Assembly (NCBI GenBank): GCA_963825525.1
Contig: CAWGTN010000001.1
Coordinates: forward strand, 96,001-160,000
Source: an uncultured Chloroflexia bacterium
Lineage (GTDB): Bacteria > Chloroflexota > Limnocylindria > QHBO01
Length of the DNA: 64,000 bases
Direction: 5' to 3'
Part shown: piece after piece, positions 36,148-39,100 of the stretch
How the letters are laid out: each line of letters opens with the position of its first letter
How positions within the stretch are numbered: the first letter of the stretch is position 1
Program-made: the position numbers

Positions 36148-39100
36148 GGGAGATATGTGGAACCGGTTCGCCGGAACCACGATCCCAGGTCGATCGGCCA
36201 GCTCGCCGCAAGGTCCGATGCTCGAGGGAGCATCGGGTAGTGAGCTGAACCGCCCTCGAAACTACCGACCTGATTCCCGCTGATAACGCGGATTCCTGTC
36301 ACTCTTCAGCAGCGCAAGCCGTGCGCGAAGCCGCCCCTCACCGGGCGGCTTCTTCGTGTCCTGGGCTGGACGGGAAGGAGGTCAGCCCGGGACGACGTCG
36401 ATCCAGCCCAGCGCGAAGGCGACGAAGAAGCCGACGATCAGGATGACGAAGGCCCAGCCCACCGCCAGCCGCGTGCGCCGTGATGTCGCGCTGCTGCCTC
36501 CGGAGGCCAACGCCCGCATCCGCTCGTCGGCCCGAAAGCCGCCTCTGACAGGATTAGGGTGTGGGTGCTCGGGTCGGTCGTGGTCGAGCATGATGGACTA
36601 GCTCCAGAGTGATCAGGCGTTGAAGCCGGGCACCGAGATGACGCCGAGCCATCCCAGCAGCGCGTAGACGATGAGGGCCACAGCAGCGAGGCCAATGATC
36701 CAGCCCGTGGCTCTCCGGGAGCCGGAGCTGATCTCCCGTCCGTAGGGCCGATCGGCGCGCTCCGCACGCTCTGCGCGGCGGGCCTCGGTCTCCGACCAGT
36801 CGTTCGGTGTCATGCCGGTTCCCGGGTTGAACCCCATGGCGCGGCCTCCAATGCGTCGACCCACGCTAGCAGGCGTCACAAGCTCCAGTTGCGGACGCAG
36901 CTCGGCGGCTGCTACGATGCCGCCTCCCGAGGGGCGTTTAGCTCAGCTGGTTAGAGCACTGCCCTGATAAGGCAGAGGTCTCTGGTTCGAGTCCAGAAAC
37001 GCCCACCACCTCACCTCCCTCGACCCATGGAGCGCCGTGTCCTCGATGCCGCAGGAGCCCGCGCCAAGCACCGAGGATCGCCCGATGGGGGTCCTGGGCG
37101 AACCGAACGAGGACCGGGAGCTCCACGCGTCGATCGGCGGGGTCGTGTACGCCCGCCACCCCACGCGAACCCACCTGGTCACGGCCGATGACGACGCCGC
37201 CGTGGTCGTCCAGCGCTACGTCGGCGACCTGGGCAGCGATGTCCGGTTGGTGGCGATCAGCGAGCGGATGGTGGCCATCACCCAGGGACGCTCCTATCCG
37301 ATCCGCGACATCACCCCGAGCCCGCTCGCGCGGCTCCTCGAGCGCTTCGTGACGCGTCCCGGCTACGGGATCGGCCTCGGTTCGGCCGAGACCATGGAGC
37401 TCGCGATCCGCGAGGTCGGGGCGCCGCGCATCCTGCTGGCCGCGGGGCTGTCGGCCGTGACCAAGCCGTTCGGGGTGCACGGCATCTTCTACCGCGTCGC
37501 CGGCGCGCAGGCGAAGGCCATCGACGGCCCGACCAGCTACACGATTCCGCCGTACAACGATGCCGCCACGCTCGGTCCGAAGGACCCCGACGGCGCCGCG
37601 CGACAGATCGCTGCCGTACTCGACGCGCCGGTCGCGATCATCGACGCCAACGATGCGGGCTGCGCGGTGCTGGGTGCCAGCCCGGGTGTGGATCGGCGCT
37701 TCGTCGAGCGCCTGTTTGCGGACAACCCCCTGGGCCAGGCGCGCGAGCAGACGCCGATCTGCGTGGTGCGCGAGGTCGCCTGGCCGGCGGGACAGGCGCT
37801 CCCGCCCGAGCCGAAGCGACGGCTGACGCCACCCTGACCCCGGCGTGAGCGATCGGGAGTTCATTCTCACCCTGTCCTGCCCGGACCGTCGGGGCATCGT
37901 GCTTGCCGTGGCGCGGGCCATCGCCGACGGCGGTGGCAACATCCTGGACAGCCAGCAGTTCGGCGACCCGGACGCCTCCGTGTTCTTCATGCGCGTCCAC
38001 TTCGCCGATGAGGCCGCGGGCGACATCGATGCCTGGCGCGCCACATTTGGCGACCTCTCCGCCGACGGCGCGTGGCGCTGGGAGCTCCACGATGCACGGC
38101 ACCGGCAGCGGATGCTCATCGCGGTGTCGCGCGAGGGGCACTGCGTCAACGACCTGCTCTACCGGTGGCAGAGCGGCGCCATCGCGGCCGAGGTGGTGGG
38201 CGTCGTGTCGACGTCGCGAGACTTCGAGGCCCTGGCCGCCGGGTATGGCGTCAGCCATTTCGTGCTGCCGGACGGAGCGGCCGGCCCCGAGGCCCGCGAC
38301 AACGCGATCCTGGAGCTGGTGGCGGAGCACAACGTGGAGCGTGGTCGTACTCGCTCGATACATGCAGCATCCTCGGAGCGCGAGCATGCGCCGAGCTCGC
38401 CGGTCGCGCCATCAACATCCACCACTCGTTCCTGCCCTCGTTCAAGGGCGCGCGGCCCGTATGCCCAGGCCCACCAGCGAGGCGTAAAGCTCATCGGGGC
38501 GACGGCCCACTACGTCACGGAGGTTCTCGACGAGGGCCCGATCATCGAACAGGAGGTCGCCCGAGTCGACCATGCGCACAGCGTCGCCGAGCTGGCTCGC
38601 GTCGGGCGCGATGTGGAGTGCGTCGCGCTGGCGCGCGCCGTGCGCTGGCACCTCGAGCATCGGGTACTTCTGCACGGCGATCGGACGGTCGTCTTCCGGT
38701 AGTGGCTTTGACCCGGTGGCCGACGCCGGATACGATGCGCTGGCCGTGGGGATGTAGCTCAGCTGGGAGAGCACCTCCTTTGCAAGGAGGGGGTCAGGGG
38801 TTCGAGTCCCCTCATCTCCACCACGTTTCATCGGGCTGCCGGGCTACATCGAGGCGTGTTGACCGGCTTCCGGCGGGGTGATACAGTAACTCGGCTCTCG
38901 CGGGGAGACCACTGCAGGTCCTCCTCGCGTTCGTTGTGACAAGCCCACATGAAATGGTCTTCTGACCGCTGCGCGCGACCCTCGTGGCGCCCATCGGTCA
39001 GCGGATACATCGCTGACGCCGTGACGGATTCCGTCGCCAGGCGTCGACCGGACGGCCAAGTGTCGACCGGCGGGCCCGTCGAACGAACCGGCATGGCGAG

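What a model noticed while it worked through the whole genome (the two positions that open the first line are those of the whole stretch)
36932..38823. A conserved CofE-fold gene, and here purU, inside the 16S-23S spacer between tRNA-Ile and tRNA-Ala
In the only rRNA operon the spacer tRNAs are 1.74 kb apart and enclose two protein genes: ORF1 (C1:133085-133837, 250 aa, a divergent paralogue of F420:glutamyl ligase CofE) and the genome's only purU (C1:133845-134702). ORF1 sits at this place in every family genome whose spacer is assembled and is under strong constraint; purU is a later addition in this genus.
Evidence so far: Rfam and ARAGORN layout; one 16S, one purU; the 10 of 31 family genomes with the spacer tRNA-Ile are the same 10 with ORF1 next to it; 85% mean column identity over 9 genera; other families have the tRNAs 12-180 nt apart (4 of 4, call 30); ORF1 fold matches CofE only (E 4e-6, TM 0.5; calls 115, 118), Pfam 19 bits against 239 for the canonical CofE at C2:1944839; homologues lie mostly on 1-5 kb contigs, as expected beside rRNA.
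(Added by a program. Inside this text positions count along the whole contig: contig position 96,001 is position 1 of the stretch shown here. "Call 12" and the like, gene names such as g00115 and contig names such as C1 are that model's own, and its searches are not shown. The text may have been shortened before it was handed on; [...] marks where a part breaks off. The agent that wrote the report below was given it as the finding of a first reader that could run no searches.)

Follow-up and report, generated by a model that had tools for sequence, protein, structure and literature searches.

The report
Protein gene hitched to spacer tRNA-Ile
In one group of soil Chloroflexota the ribosomal RNA operon appears to have been split into separately promoted pieces, and an uncharacterised ligase-like gene always sits directly behind the spacer tRNA-Ile.

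Summary
The layout is real. The window holds 16S, tRNA-Ile(GAT), ORF1, purU, tRNA-Ala(TGC), 23S and 5S, all on the + strand and all single-copy in the genome.

ORF1 is under purifying selection (median dN/dS 0.185). Its predicted fold matches only CofE.

- ORF1 most likely starts at GTG 37037 (266 aa), not ATG 37085.
- Sister genus g24 of the same family has the two tRNAs 30-33 nt apart and no ORF1 (3 of 3 assembled spacers).
- purU lies behind ORF1 in at least five genera, and one more locus holds a relic. It is not specific to this genus.
- The region does not look like one operon. A terminator-like hairpin follows the 16S processing stem in 46 of 47 ORF1 loci. A tRNA-type promoter-like motif precedes tRNA-Ile in 47 of 48. 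tRNA-Ala and 23S carry promoter-like motifs of their own.

In many relatives 23S does not follow tRNA-Ala. The constant unit is tRNA-Ile followed by ORF1.

ORF1 belongs to a widespread CofE-like family found outside known F420 producers. That family is often fused to asparagine synthase B and often lies just behind tRNA genes in other phyla. No transcription data exist, and the function is unknown.

The parts
34341..34369 (+). Promoter-like site upstream of 16S: TTGACG, 17 nt, TATAGT (10 of 12 matches).
34534..34550 (+). 5' strand of the 16S processing stem. It is the exact reverse complement of 36293-36309.
   Evidence: 2 matches in the window, 0.09 expected by chance. Sequence read.
34640..36144 (+). 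16S rRNA, the only copy in the genome.
   Evidence: 1564.8 bits.
36293..36309 (+). 3' strand of the 16S processing stem (TTCCTGTCACTCTTCAG). It is conserved also in relatives that lack ORF1.
36329..36359 (+). Terminator-like GC hairpin (AGCCGCCCC-TCAC-CGGGCGGCT, -16.4 kcal/mol) followed by TCTTCGTGT.
   Evidence: An equivalent hairpin starts 174-191 nt after the 16S end in 46 of 47 ORF1 loci and in 0 of 6 loci without ORF1.
36382..36591 (-). Small antisense ORF sB (69 aa, one hydrophobic C-terminal helix). It lies in a stretch that is an insertion/deletion difference among close relatives.
   Evidence: 60% and 39% identity in L002 and L004; contigs join 36358/36361 to 36612/36613.
36613..36879 (-). 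Small antisense ORF sA (88 aa as listed). Conservation begins at Met15, which gives about 74 aa with a start at 36837. It has one C-terminal hydrophobic helix and is a distant paralogue of sB.
   Evidence: 50-78% protein identity in 9 other genus-g1 loci; sA against sB, E 2e-4.
36889..36918 (+). Promoter-like motif TTGCGG, 18 nt, TACGAT. It ends 13 nt before tRNA-Ile.
   Evidence: 47 of 48 loci; hexamer columns 70-99% identical, spacer 40-50%; same architecture at stand-alone tRNA genes of G000.
36932..37008 (+). tRNA-Ile(GAT) with encoded CCA, the only copy in the genome.
37029..37032 (+). Shine-Dalgarno GGAG, 4 nt before the GTG start at 37037.
37037..37837 (+). ORF1, 266 aa. A protein with the CofE fold from a family found outside known F420 producers. 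The folded core is about residues 30-247 of the 266-aa form; the N-terminal 16 or so residues are variable.
37845..38702 (+). purU (formyltetrahydrofolate deformylase: ACT plus formyltransferase domains). Three single-base insertions near 38339-38341, 38368 and 38456-38458 add up to +3.
38708..38736 (+). Promoter-like site TTGACC, 17 nt, TACGAT. It ends 11 nt before tRNA-Ala.
   Evidence: (a -10-like hexamer in 41 of 42 loci, TTGAC at the -35 place in 19).
38748..38823 (+). tRNA-Ala(TGC), the only copy in the genome.
38859..38887 (+). Promoter-like site with an extended -10 (TTGACC, 17 nt, TG-n-TACAGT) ahead of 23S.
   Evidence: present in 16 of 41 ORF1 loci, namely those where 23S follows, and in g24 loci L058 and L060.
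39223..42299 (+). 23S rRNA.
42427..42543 (+). 5S rRNA.

Best explanation
Ancestral state. The ancestral operon was 16S, tRNA-Ile, tRNA-Ala, 23S, 5S. Sister genus g24 and family f3 still have it, with the two tRNAs 14-33 nt apart.

What changed. In a clade of at least 13 genera of one 'Candidatus Limnocylindria' family (Chloroflexota), this operon has been taken apart into separately promoted units.

Unit 1: promoter, leader, 16S. It is closed by its own processing stem (34534-34550 pairs with 36293-36309) and ends at a hairpin plus T-rich tail (36329-36359).

Unit 2: a tRNA-type sigma-70 promoter (36889-36918), then tRNA-Ile, then 28 nt with a GGAG ribosome-binding site, then ORF1 (GTG 37037, 266 aa). 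In some lineages purU follows. The protein genes are therefore the distal part of a tRNA-mRNA transcript. tRNA processing would leave an mRNA with a leader of at most about 28 nt.

Units 3 and 4: tRNA-Ala and 23S-5S each have a promoter of their own (38708-38736 and 38859-38887).

ORF1's function. It is a GTP- or ATP-dependent amide-bond ligase of the CofE fold that does not act on F420. It belongs to a large family that often forms the C-terminal domain of asparagine synthase B.

Shown here: the gene order, the conservation of the motifs and the hairpin, the constraint on ORF1, the fold and the family distribution.

Inferred: that the motifs are active promoters, that the hairpin terminates transcription, that tRNA-Ile and ORF1 share a transcript, and every statement about enzymatic activity.
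For: Gene order:
- ORF1 starts 20-41 nt after tRNA-Ile(GAT) in all 48 family loci that hold both genes.

Promoter-like motif before tRNA-Ile:
- TTGCNN, 16-19 nt, TAC(G/C)AT ends 11-14 nt before tRNA-Ile in 47 of 48 loci.
- Hexamer columns are 70-99% identical; the spacer and flanks are 30-50% identical.
- The motif is absent in the 6 loci without ORF1.
- Stand-alone tRNA genes of G000 show the same architecture. The full pattern occurs at 9 of 52 tRNAs against 7 of 5000 random positions, and both spacer tRNAs are among the 9. Many other tRNAs carry a TAnnnT hexamer at the same distance.

Terminator-like hairpin:
- A hairpin (at most -13 kcal/mol, at least 4 T in the next 9 nt) starts 174-191 nt after the 16S end in 46 of 47 ORF1 loci and in 0 of 6 loci without ORF1.
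- It lies just after the 3' strand of the 16S processing stem, which is a perfect 17-nt complement of the leader.

Other promoter-like sites:
- Sites before tRNA-Ala and before 23S.
- The 23S site is conserved wherever 23S follows, including in g24.

Linkage to 23S is dispensable:
- After ORF1, g31 loci carry a ctaG-like gene and an antisense cox3-like gene.
- g26 loci have an inverted tRNA-Ala.
- L034 and L038 carry other inserted genes.
- 25 of 41 loci have no 23S leader after tRNA-Ala.

Antisense genes:
- In G000 and 9 other g1 loci, a conserved antisense small-protein gene lies between the hairpin and the tRNA-Ile promoter.

ORF1 is a real gene:
- Median dN/dS 0.185, maximum 0.319, over 250 pairs drawn from 46 coding sequences. 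GC at the third codon position is 0.91.
- A conserved ribosome-binding site and start are present in 46 of 48 loci.

Fold and family:
- Fold and sequence comparisons.
- 856 cluster representatives at E<=1e-3.
- Asparagine synthase B fusions in 13 of 22 proteins scanned. By my count, 106 of the 120 longer proteins listed are such fusions.
- Members occur in Patescibacteria, Bacteroidales, Bacillota, Thermotogota and Microbacterium.

Origin:
- In a 16S tree the 22 ORF1-bearing rows lie on one side of a branch, and g24 and f3 lie on the other (support 82/87).
Against: - No RNA data of any kind. Promoter and terminator calls rest on consensus and on conservation among related genomes.
- The generic scan found 3 promoter-like sites in 9 kb where 1.5 +/- 1.4 were expected, and no terminator at 36329. 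The tail has too few T for that tool.
- rRNA antitermination complexes can read through terminators, so 16S transcription may continue into tRNA-Ile and ORF1.
- There is no terminator-like site between ORF1/purU and tRNA-Ala (5 nt from the purU stop to the -35 hexamer). Unit 2 therefore probably reads through into tRNA-Ala and 23S, and the units are not insulated from each other.
- The -35 hexamer TTGCGN matches the consensus at only 3-4 of 6 positions.
- The loci are related, so 47 of 48 is not 47 independent observations.
- ORF1's conserved polar residues (D147, D187, N189, D213, N214, Q218, T223 in the 250-aa numbering) could not be mapped onto CofE's metal and GTP sites. Ligase activity is therefore inferred from the fold alone.
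Confidence: 0.55

Rival explanations
1. ORF1 and purU are true spacer genes, transcribed as part of one 16S-to-5S precursor from the promoter upstream of 16S. They are released as mRNA when RNase P and other enzymes cut out the flanking tRNAs. The hairpin is a processing or pausing site, and the internal promoter-like motifs are secondary.
For: - All genes are on one strand, in the canonical order, within 3.1 kb.
- There is no terminator-like site between ORF1/purU and tRNA-Ala or 23S.
- The tool's terminator scan did not call the hairpin.
- rRNA antitermination is known to suppress termination (established knowledge).
Against: - The hairpin plus T-rich tail occurs only in the ORF1-bearing clade (46 of 47 against 0 of 6).
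- A tRNA-type promoter motif is conserved before tRNA-Ile (47 of 48).
- Conserved antisense genes sit between 16S and tRNA-Ile in 10 g1 loci.
- In many relatives 23S is no longer behind tRNA-Ala, while tRNA-Ile to ORF1 stays intact.
- Making an mRNA at the rate of rRNA would be wasteful (inference).
Confidence: 0.25
2. A rival on function. ORF1 is a FolC2-type enzyme: a CofE homologue that adds glutamate to dihydropteroate or folates, like Chlamydia trachomatis CT611. On this reading its pairing with purU marks a small folate module.
For: - Passages of PMC1971073 report that a COG1478/CofE homologue of chlamydiae (CT611) clusters with folate genes and complements an E. coli folC mutant.
- purU, a folate one-carbon enzyme, lies 7 nt behind ORF1 in at least five genera.
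- The ORF1 family occurs in many organisms not known to make F420.
Against: - A canonical folC above the TIGR01499 cut-off is present in 10 of 10 genomes tested, with or without ORF1. There is no gap for ORF1 to fill.
- purU is missing from most ORF1-bearing genera, and it is then missing from the whole genome (0 of 5 over cut-off).
- No other folate gene turned up among 118 neighbours of outgroup homologues.
- Similarity to CT611 could not be tested.
Confidence: 0.15
3. An artefact. Either the arrangement is a mis-assembly that joins rRNA fragments to unrelated genes, or ORF1 is a chance open frame in GC-rich DNA.
For: - rRNA regions are often mis-assembled in metagenome bins. Many homologues lie on 1-5 kb contigs.
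- High GC content gives long spurious frames (one search lists many).
Against: - The same order is found in 48 loci from separate assemblies, several on contigs of 0.2-1.4 Mb.
- dN/dS is 0.185.
- The model is confident (pLDDT 91.3).
- The family has 856 cluster representatives.
Confidence: 0.02

Closest known systems
Unlinked rRNA genes (Brewer et al., bioRxiv 10.1101/705046; abstract and passages seen)
   Same: The 16S end and the 23S start are 3078 nt apart here. The paper's criterion for 'unlinked' is more than 1500 bp. The paper names Chloroflexi among the phyla where unlinked genes are frequent, and finds that the state is conserved within clades.
   Different: Most of that paper's unlinked pairs are more than 6 kb apart (682 of 778). 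Here the order, the strand and both spacer tRNAs are kept. One particular protein gene is fixed behind tRNA-Ile across at least 13 genera. Stages from still adjacent to fully separated occur within one family. I could not see the paper's supplements, which may list this class.
Borrelia rRNA locus (16S, tRNA-Ala, then an oppositely oriented tRNA-Ile ahead of tandem 23S-5S; figure legend of PMC4370689 seen)
   Same: The spacer tRNAs are pulled apart, and 16S is separated from 23S-5S by a few kb.
   Different: In Borrelia the tRNA order is Ala then Ile, tRNA-Ile is inverted and 23S-5S is duplicated. That protein genes lie between the two tRNAs there is my recollection and comes from no call. No CofE-like gene is involved.
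tRNA-mRNA operons such as E. coli thrU-tyrU-glyT-thrT-tufB (recalled; no call)
   Same: A protein gene lies directly 3' of tRNA genes and is expressed from the tRNA promoter. The mRNA is released by tRNA processing.
   Different: Here the tRNA is the spacer tRNA-Ile of a former rRNA operon, and the cargo is an uncharacterised enzyme. Co-transcription has not been shown.
CofE, F420-0:L-glutamate ligase (Archaeoglobus fulgidus; PDB 2PHN, 2G9I, 7ULD)
   Same: It is the only fold match (E 1.3e-7, TM 0.56) and the only sequence match in the PDB (E 2e-4). Profile comparison with the genome's own CofE gives 94.9% probability over 134 columns.
   Different: Identity is 17-18%. ORF1 is far below the curated family cut-offs. 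A canonical CofE is present elsewhere in the same genome. The family also occurs in lineages not known to make F420.
Chlamydia trachomatis CT611 (FolC2), a CofE homologue with FolC activity (PMC1971073; passages seen)
   Same: It is a member of the CofE superfamily that works outside F420 synthesis and is linked to a folate gene.
   Different: Chlamydiae lack folC, whereas all 10 Limnocylindria genomes tested have it. Sequence relatedness to CT611 was not tested.

Membership tests
CofE / F420-0:gamma-glutamyl ligase (TIGR01916, PF01996) | Score above the curated family cut-off | tested here: not met
   TIGR01916: 18.2 bits against a cut-off of 180.65. PF01996: 22.5 bits against 25. The genome's canonical CofE scores 238.9 bits.
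CofE / F420-0:gamma-glutamyl ligase (TIGR01916, PF01996) | CofE fold | tested here: met
   Model pLDDT 91.3. Foldseek ranks 1-5 are all A. fulgidus CofE (E 1.3e-7 to 3e-6, TM 0.51-0.56); rank 6 has E 1.1.
CofE / F420-0:gamma-glutamyl ligase (TIGR01916, PF01996) | Restricted to F420-producing organisms or an F420 gene context | tested here: inconclusive
   Homologues carry names from Patescibacteria, Bacteroidales, Oscillospiraceae, Limnochordia, Thermotogota and Microbacterium. I did not search those genomes for other F420 genes. No cof/fbi gene appeared among 118 neighbours.
CofE / F420-0:gamma-glutamyl ligase (TIGR01916, PF01996) | GTP- and Mn-dependent addition of L-glutamate to F420-0 | not testable with these tools
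   Needs biochemistry.
FolC2 (CofE homologue that replaces FolC) | No canonical folC in the genome | tested here: not met
   TIGR01499 above its cut-off in 10 of 10 genomes.
FolC2 (CofE homologue that replaces FolC) | Clustered with folate genes | tested here: inconclusive
   purU is adjacent in part of the clade only. No folate genes lie next to the outgroup homologues.
FolC2 (CofE homologue that replaces FolC) | Sequence closer to CT611 than to CofE | not tested
Canonical bacterial rrn operon with spacer tRNA-Ile and tRNA-Ala | One transcription unit, with no terminator or promoter between 16S and 23S | tested here: not met
   Judged by sequence only: a terminator-like hairpin and promoter-like motifs before tRNA-Ile, tRNA-Ala and 23S. 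Transcripts were not observed.
Unlinked rRNA genes (more than 1500 bp between 16S and 23S) | Distance above 1500 bp | tested here: met
   36144 to 39223 is 3078 bp. In relatives with ORF1 only it is about 1.7 kb (L023).
tRNA-mRNA co-transcription unit | Promoter upstream of the tRNA and no terminator between the tRNA and the ORF | tested here: met
   Motif in 47 of 48 loci. Only 20-41 nt lie between the tRNA end and the start codon, and they contain the ribosome-binding site.
tRNA-mRNA co-transcription unit | A shared transcript is observed | not testable with these tools
   No RNA run could be used (see Tried and rejected).
PurU, formyltetrahydrofolate deformylase | ACT domain plus formyltransferase domain, and a family score above the cut-off | tested here: met
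   PF01842 and PF00551. NF004684: 265.5 bits against 223. TIGR00655: 216.3 bits, below its cut-off of 285.95, because the middle is out of frame.

The most novel reading that the evidence does not exclude
The CofE-like family is tied, by function or by regulation, to stable-RNA synthesis, and its place behind tRNA-Ile is not an accident.

A same-strand tRNA lies directly upstream of the homologue in 8 of 61 loci from other phyla. Seven different tRNA identities are involved, mostly in Patescibacteria and once in Thermotogota. Only 3 of 324 control ORFs in the same loci have such a tRNA.

Other members are fused to an HD_4 domain. I recall this as the RelA/SpoT-type (p)ppGpp hydrolase domain.

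The protein could be an enzyme that uses guanine nucleotides and whose dose is wired to tRNA/rRNA promoters, and so to growth rate and the stringent response. It could even be a ligase that acts on tRNA, on the ribosome or on a translation factor. A 38% homologue sits next to efp in family f3.
Probability: 0.15. Interest if true: 0.8.

Novelty: new variant of a known kind. Interest (0 to 1): 0.55.

Why it matters
- It shows an rRNA operon caught while coming apart. Within one family there is the intact ancestral form (g24). There are also forms with one or two genes wedged between the spacer tRNAs, forms with antisense genes behind 16S, and forms where 23S has moved away. That makes it possible to ask how unlinked rRNA genes arise. 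A promoter ahead of 23S already exists in g24 and may have made the break tolerable.
- It gives a testable example of a bacterial mRNA that would be made as the tail of a tRNA transcript.
- It flags a large uncharacterised branch of the CofE superfamily (856 cluster representatives at 50% identity). The branch is widespread in Patescibacteria, gut Bacteroidales and Clostridia, and in cultured Microbacterium. It is recurrently fused to asparagine synthase B and recurrently placed behind tRNA genes. Its chemistry is unknown.
- A practical point. Long-amplicon 16S-ITS-23S surveys and rRNA-based binning will mishandle this abundant soil clade. Two short contigs that carry this ORF1 are filed under Gemmatimonadales and Actinomycetes bins.

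Tried and rejected
RNA evidence:
- The look-up of sequencing runs listed no RNA holder, so expression could not be examined.
- Read laying laid only DNA contigs from four soil or related runs. I used them only for insertion/deletion differences.

MurD replacement:
- In two genomes of about 0.9 Mb the homologue sits at murD's usual place, in the order MraY, X, FtsW, MurG, Mur ligase.
- A MurD above the TIGR01087 cut-off exists elsewhere in both genomes, and also in G000, G219 and G220. Rejected.

FolC replacement:
- folC is present in 10 of 10 genomes tested. There is no complementary pattern.

ORF1 as the detached C-terminal domain of the genome's own asparagine synthase B:
- G000 has one such gene (664 aa, C2) without the domain.
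- It sits in what looks like an envelope or polysaccharide context.
- I did not show that it is orthologous to the fused forms. Left open.

purU moved into the spacer from elsewhere in the genome:
- Genomes without a spacer purU have no purU at all (0 of 5 over cut-off). This is gain and loss, not relocation.

Active-site mapping:
- The profile alignment to CofE covers only residues 32-186 and is unreliable around the NAGxD motif. I did not map catalytic residues.

Calls that gave nothing:
- The search for related loci with the 34-sequence alignment found no searchable stretch. A 9-sequence alignment worked.

Literature:
- Searches for a described protein gene between the spacer tRNAs, or for this clade's operon, gave no such paper among the rows listed. 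The 12 rows listed had no occurrence of 'Limnocylindria'.
- One search found no paper on this CofE-like branch other than the chlamydial FolC2 work.

- The generic terminator scan did not report the 36329 hairpin.

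
Full report
OBSERVATION

Rfam and ARAGORN place the RNA genes on the + strand as follows:
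- 16S at 34640-36144
- tRNA-Ile(GAT) at 36932-37008
- tRNA-Ala(TGC) at 38748-38823
- 23S at 39223-42299
- 5S at 42427-42543

Two open frames fill the 1739 nt between the tRNAs: 37037-37837 (266 aa) and 37845-38702 (285 aa). The genome has four contigs, 2.58 Mb and 68-69% GC. Each of these genes occurs once. Source names on near-identical proteins place the organism in 'Candidatus Limnocylindria', Chloroflexota.

purU

The second frame is a formyltetrahydrofolate deformylase with ACT and formyltransferase domains. It scores 265.5 bits against NF004684, whose cut-off is 223.

Aligned to five orthologues of the genus, the G000 copy has three single extra bases: near 38339-38341, at 38368, and in the C run 38456-38458. 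They add up to +3, so the frame is regained. About 39 codons, including the conserved HHSFLPSFKGA stretch, are read in the wrong frames.

Contigs of four DNA runs laid on the region lack one base at 38339, 38368 and 38454 or 38459. One of them is a 140-nt contig that differs at only two other positions. A very recent pseudogene is not excluded.

ORF1 IS A REAL, CONSTRAINED GENE, BUT IT STARTS EARLIER

Homologues at 71-87% identity were found in:
- 42 of 101 family genomes, in 13 of 24 genera
- 12 of the 24 other genomes of the genus

For 46 full-length orthologous coding sequences, the median pairwise dN/dS over 250 random pairs is 0.185, with a maximum of 0.319. GC at the third codon position is 0.91.

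In 46 of 48 loci an in-frame GTG (32), ATG (13) or TTG (1) preceded by a GGAG-type site lies 20-41 nt after the tRNA-Ile 3' end. In the window this is GGAG at 37029-37032 and GTG at 37037, which gives 266 aa. Most gene callers chose the same length for the metagenomic homologues.

WHERE THE ARRANGEMENT OCCURS

In all 48 family loci that hold both genes, ORF1 directly follows tRNA-Ile(GAT), which follows 16S.

The claim that this holds for every family genome with an assembled spacer is wrong:
- Genus g24 of the same family has tRNA-Ile and tRNA-Ala 30-33 nt apart, with no ORF1, in 3 of 3 assembled spacers (G070, G098, G090).
- No homologue was found in 0 of 12 and 0 of 9 g24 genomes searched.
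- Family f3 has the tRNAs 14-15 nt apart in 3 of 3.

I built a 1000-nt 16S tree of 28 rows. The 22 ORF1-bearing rows lie on one side of a branch (support 82/87), and g24 and f3 lie on the other. This fits one capture of ORF1 after g24 split off.

purU is not specific to the genus:
- It follows ORF1 in g1, g14 (L022), g33 (L025), g31 (L028) and g26 (L039).
- L032 holds a relic of it.
- Three g1 loci (L007, L012, L019) lack it.
- Genomes without a spacer purU have no purU anywhere (0 of 5 over the cut-off).

purU is thus an accessory gene that, when present, sits here. The relic argues for repeated loss.

THE REGION DOES NOT LOOK LIKE ONE OPERON

First, the 16S unit is self-contained. A 17-nt element at 36293-36309 is the exact reverse complement of 34534-34550 in the leader, so the 16S processing stem closes there. 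The element is conserved in all relatives.

Second, a GC hairpin with a T-rich tail follows at 36329-36359. An equivalent hairpin starts 174-191 nt after the 16S end in 46 of 47 ORF1-bearing loci. The one miss, L012, has a bulged version. None of the 6 loci without ORF1 has it.

Third, the motif TTGCNN, 16-19 nt, TAC(G/C)AT ends 11-14 nt before tRNA-Ile in 47 of 48 loci.
- The hexamer columns are 70-99% identical, while the spacer and flanks are 30-50% identical.
- The six loci without ORF1 lack the motif.
- Stand-alone tRNA genes of G000 show the same architecture. The full pattern is found at 9 of 52 tRNAs against 7 of 5000 random positions. Both spacer tRNAs are among the nine, and many more tRNAs have a TAnnnT hexamer at that distance.

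Fourth, tRNA-Ala and 23S have sites of their own.
- Sites of the form TTGACC, 17 nt, TAnnnT lie before tRNA-Ala (38708-38736) and before 23S (38859-38887, with an extended -10).
- The 23S site is conserved wherever 23S follows tRNA-Ala: in 16 of 41 ORF1 loci and in g24 loci L058 and L060.

Fifth, the surroundings are in flux while tRNA-Ile to ORF1 is constant.
- G000 and nine other g1 loci carry a conserved antisense gene for a small membrane protein between the hairpin and the tRNA-Ile promoter.
- g31 loci have a ctaG-like gene and an antisense cox3-like gene after ORF1.
- g26 loci have tRNA-Ala inverted.
- L034 and L038 carry other inserted genes.
- In 25 of 41 loci, the sequence after tRNA-Ala is not the 23S leader.

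MECHANISM PROPOSED

I propose four units:
1. 16S.
2. tRNA-Ile with ORF1, and purU where present.
3. tRNA-Ala.
4. 23S-5S.

ORF1 would be translated from the 3' part of a tRNA-Ile transcript, with a leader of at most about 28 nt after the tRNA is cut out.

There is no terminator-like site after ORF1 or purU, so read-through into tRNA-Ala and 23S is likely. The promoter ahead of 23S also exists in g24. It predates the capture and may have made the break-up tolerable.

All of this is inferred from sequence. No RNA data were available.

WHAT ORF1 IS

Fold and sequence comparisons:
- The model (pLDDT 91.3, pTM 0.88) matches only A. fulgidus CofE.
- A family profile finds only CofE in the PDB (E 2e-4).
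- Profile comparison with the genome's own CofE gives 94.9% probability.
- ORF1 is far below the curated cut-offs, and a canonical CofE is present elsewhere in the genome.

The family is large: 856 cluster representatives at E<=1e-3 and 521 at E<=1e-10.

Fusions:
- Of 22 members scanned, 13 carry asparagine synthase and/or its amidotransferase domain N-terminal to the CofE-like domain.
- Single examples carry HD_4, peptidase M20, GNAT, adenylate kinase or PlsY.
- By my count, 106 of the 120 longer proteins listed are asparagine synthase fusions, 13 are HD_4 fusions and one is a GH3 fusion.

Stand-alone members occur in Patescibacteria, Bacteroidales, Bacillota, Armatimonadota, Thermotogota and cultured Microbacterium.

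Neighbours are varied. Envelope genes recur: Lgt in four Bacteroidales loci, MraY and FtsW, penicillin-binding proteins and GlmS. Asparagine synthase B plus an amidase flank the gene in two loci.

A published precedent for a CofE homologue working outside F420 is chlamydial CT611, which complements an E. coli folC mutant (passages of PMC1971073). With purU next door this is attractive. However, folC is present in 10 of 10 genomes tested.

A MurD-replacement idea was also rejected.

My best guess is a nucleotide-dependent amide ligase with an unknown acceptor that is not F420.

A RECURRING LINK TO tRNA GENES

Among 61 homologue loci from other phyla:
- 8 have a same-strand tRNA directly upstream. 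The tRNAs are Leu-taa (twice, in the same synteny), Lys-ttt, Leu-tag, Ser-tga, Arg-tcg, His-gtg and Leu-cag.
- 3 have a same-strand tRNA directly downstream.
- Of 324 other ORFs of at least 150 aa in the same loci, 3 have a same-strand tRNA directly upstream.

The control is rough. It uses ORFs rather than gene calls, and it comes from the same loci. Even so, the pattern suggests that placement behind tRNA genes is a habit of this family and not a peculiarity of Limnocylindria.

COMPARISON WITH WHAT IS KNOWN

By the criterion of Brewer et al. (more than 1500 bp), this clade has 'unlinked' rRNA genes. That paper reports such genes as common in Chloroflexi (passages seen; supplements not seen).

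Three things appear undescribed in the searches I ran:
- the retention of order and tRNAs
- the fixed cargo behind tRNA-Ile
- the graded series within one family

These searches cover only the held library. Analogies with Borrelia (figure legend seen), with the E. coli tufB operon and with the Rickettsia fmt-23S arrangement are partly or wholly recalled.

VERDICT

I rate it a new variant of a known kind, with moderate interest.

One locus, L012, comes from a genome marked unpublished. No claim depends on it alone.

Noticed in passing
window 36361-36879 (- strand ORFs 36382-36591 and 36613-36879): Two paralogous small ORFs, each with one C-terminal hydrophobic helix, lie antisense between 16S and tRNA-Ile. 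The larger one is conserved at 50-78% in nine other genus loci. Contigs from other samples join 36358/36361 to 36612/36613, so the stretch that holds the smaller ORF is an insertion/deletion difference among close relatives. The 16S to tRNA-Ile distance ranges from 269 to 878 nt within the genus.
   Followed up: partly
window 54083-55177 (+), between tRNA-Thr(GGT) 54017-54092 and tRNA-Trp 55469-55544: A 364-aa ORF that looks like a multi-pass membrane protein fills the gap behind a tRNA-Thr, tRNA-Tyr, tRNA-Thr cluster. Many bacteria have tuf at this place (recalled). It is another protein gene directly behind tRNAs in the same window.
   Followed up: no
L129:2932-8687 and L088:139-2456: In two genomes of about 0.9 Mb the CofE-like gene sits in the cell-division and cell-wall cluster, in the order MraY, X, FtsW, MurG, Mur ligase. 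murD usually lies at this place (recalled order). murD itself is elsewhere in both genomes.
   Followed up: yes
proteins P0134, P0145, P0153, P0168 and others; P0128, P0271-P0275: Proteins of about 870 aa that fuse asparagine synthase B to the CofE-like domain are common in Chloroflexi, Acidimicrobiia, Acidobacteriota and Thermaerobacter. Fusions of HD_4 to the CofE-like domain, about 450 aa long, occur in Patescibacteria such as Uhrbacteria.
   Followed up: partly
L014 (G028:C101), ORFs 1498-2655 (-) and 795-1352 (-): In family f3 a 38% homologue of ORF1 lies away from rRNA and tRNA genes, directly upstream of elongation factor P. Homologues were found in 5 of 49 f3 genomes.
   Followed up: no
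L020, L021, L024, L031 (genus g31); L032, L033, L039 (genus g26); L034; L038: What lies after ORF1 differs by lineage. g31 has a ctaG-like gene plus an antisense cox3-like gene. g26 has an inverted tRNA-Ala followed by an AhpD-like gene. L034 has a cyclase-like gene on the opposite strand. L038 has a MOSC-like gene between tRNA-Ala and 23S. These names rest on motifs read in the translations, not on a family scan.
   Followed up: partly
L069 and L076 (genome contigs): Short contigs (3.4 and 2.3 kb) that carry ORF1 at 80% and 71% identity are filed in bins labelled Gemmatimonadales and Actinomycetes. These are probably mis-binned rRNA-linked fragments of this Limnocylindria clade.
   Followed up: no
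G014 (L013), G061 (L055), G080 (L056), G128 (L054), G125, G134: ORF1 is split over two or three frames in several assemblies that have few contigs. This resembles purU in G000 and fits insertion/deletion errors of long-read assemblies better than repeated pseudogenes.
   Followed up: no
G000 C2:839385 (- strand): ARAGORN reports a tRNA-like gene with a four-base anticodon, written 'tRNA-???(cgag)'. Not examined.
   Followed up: no
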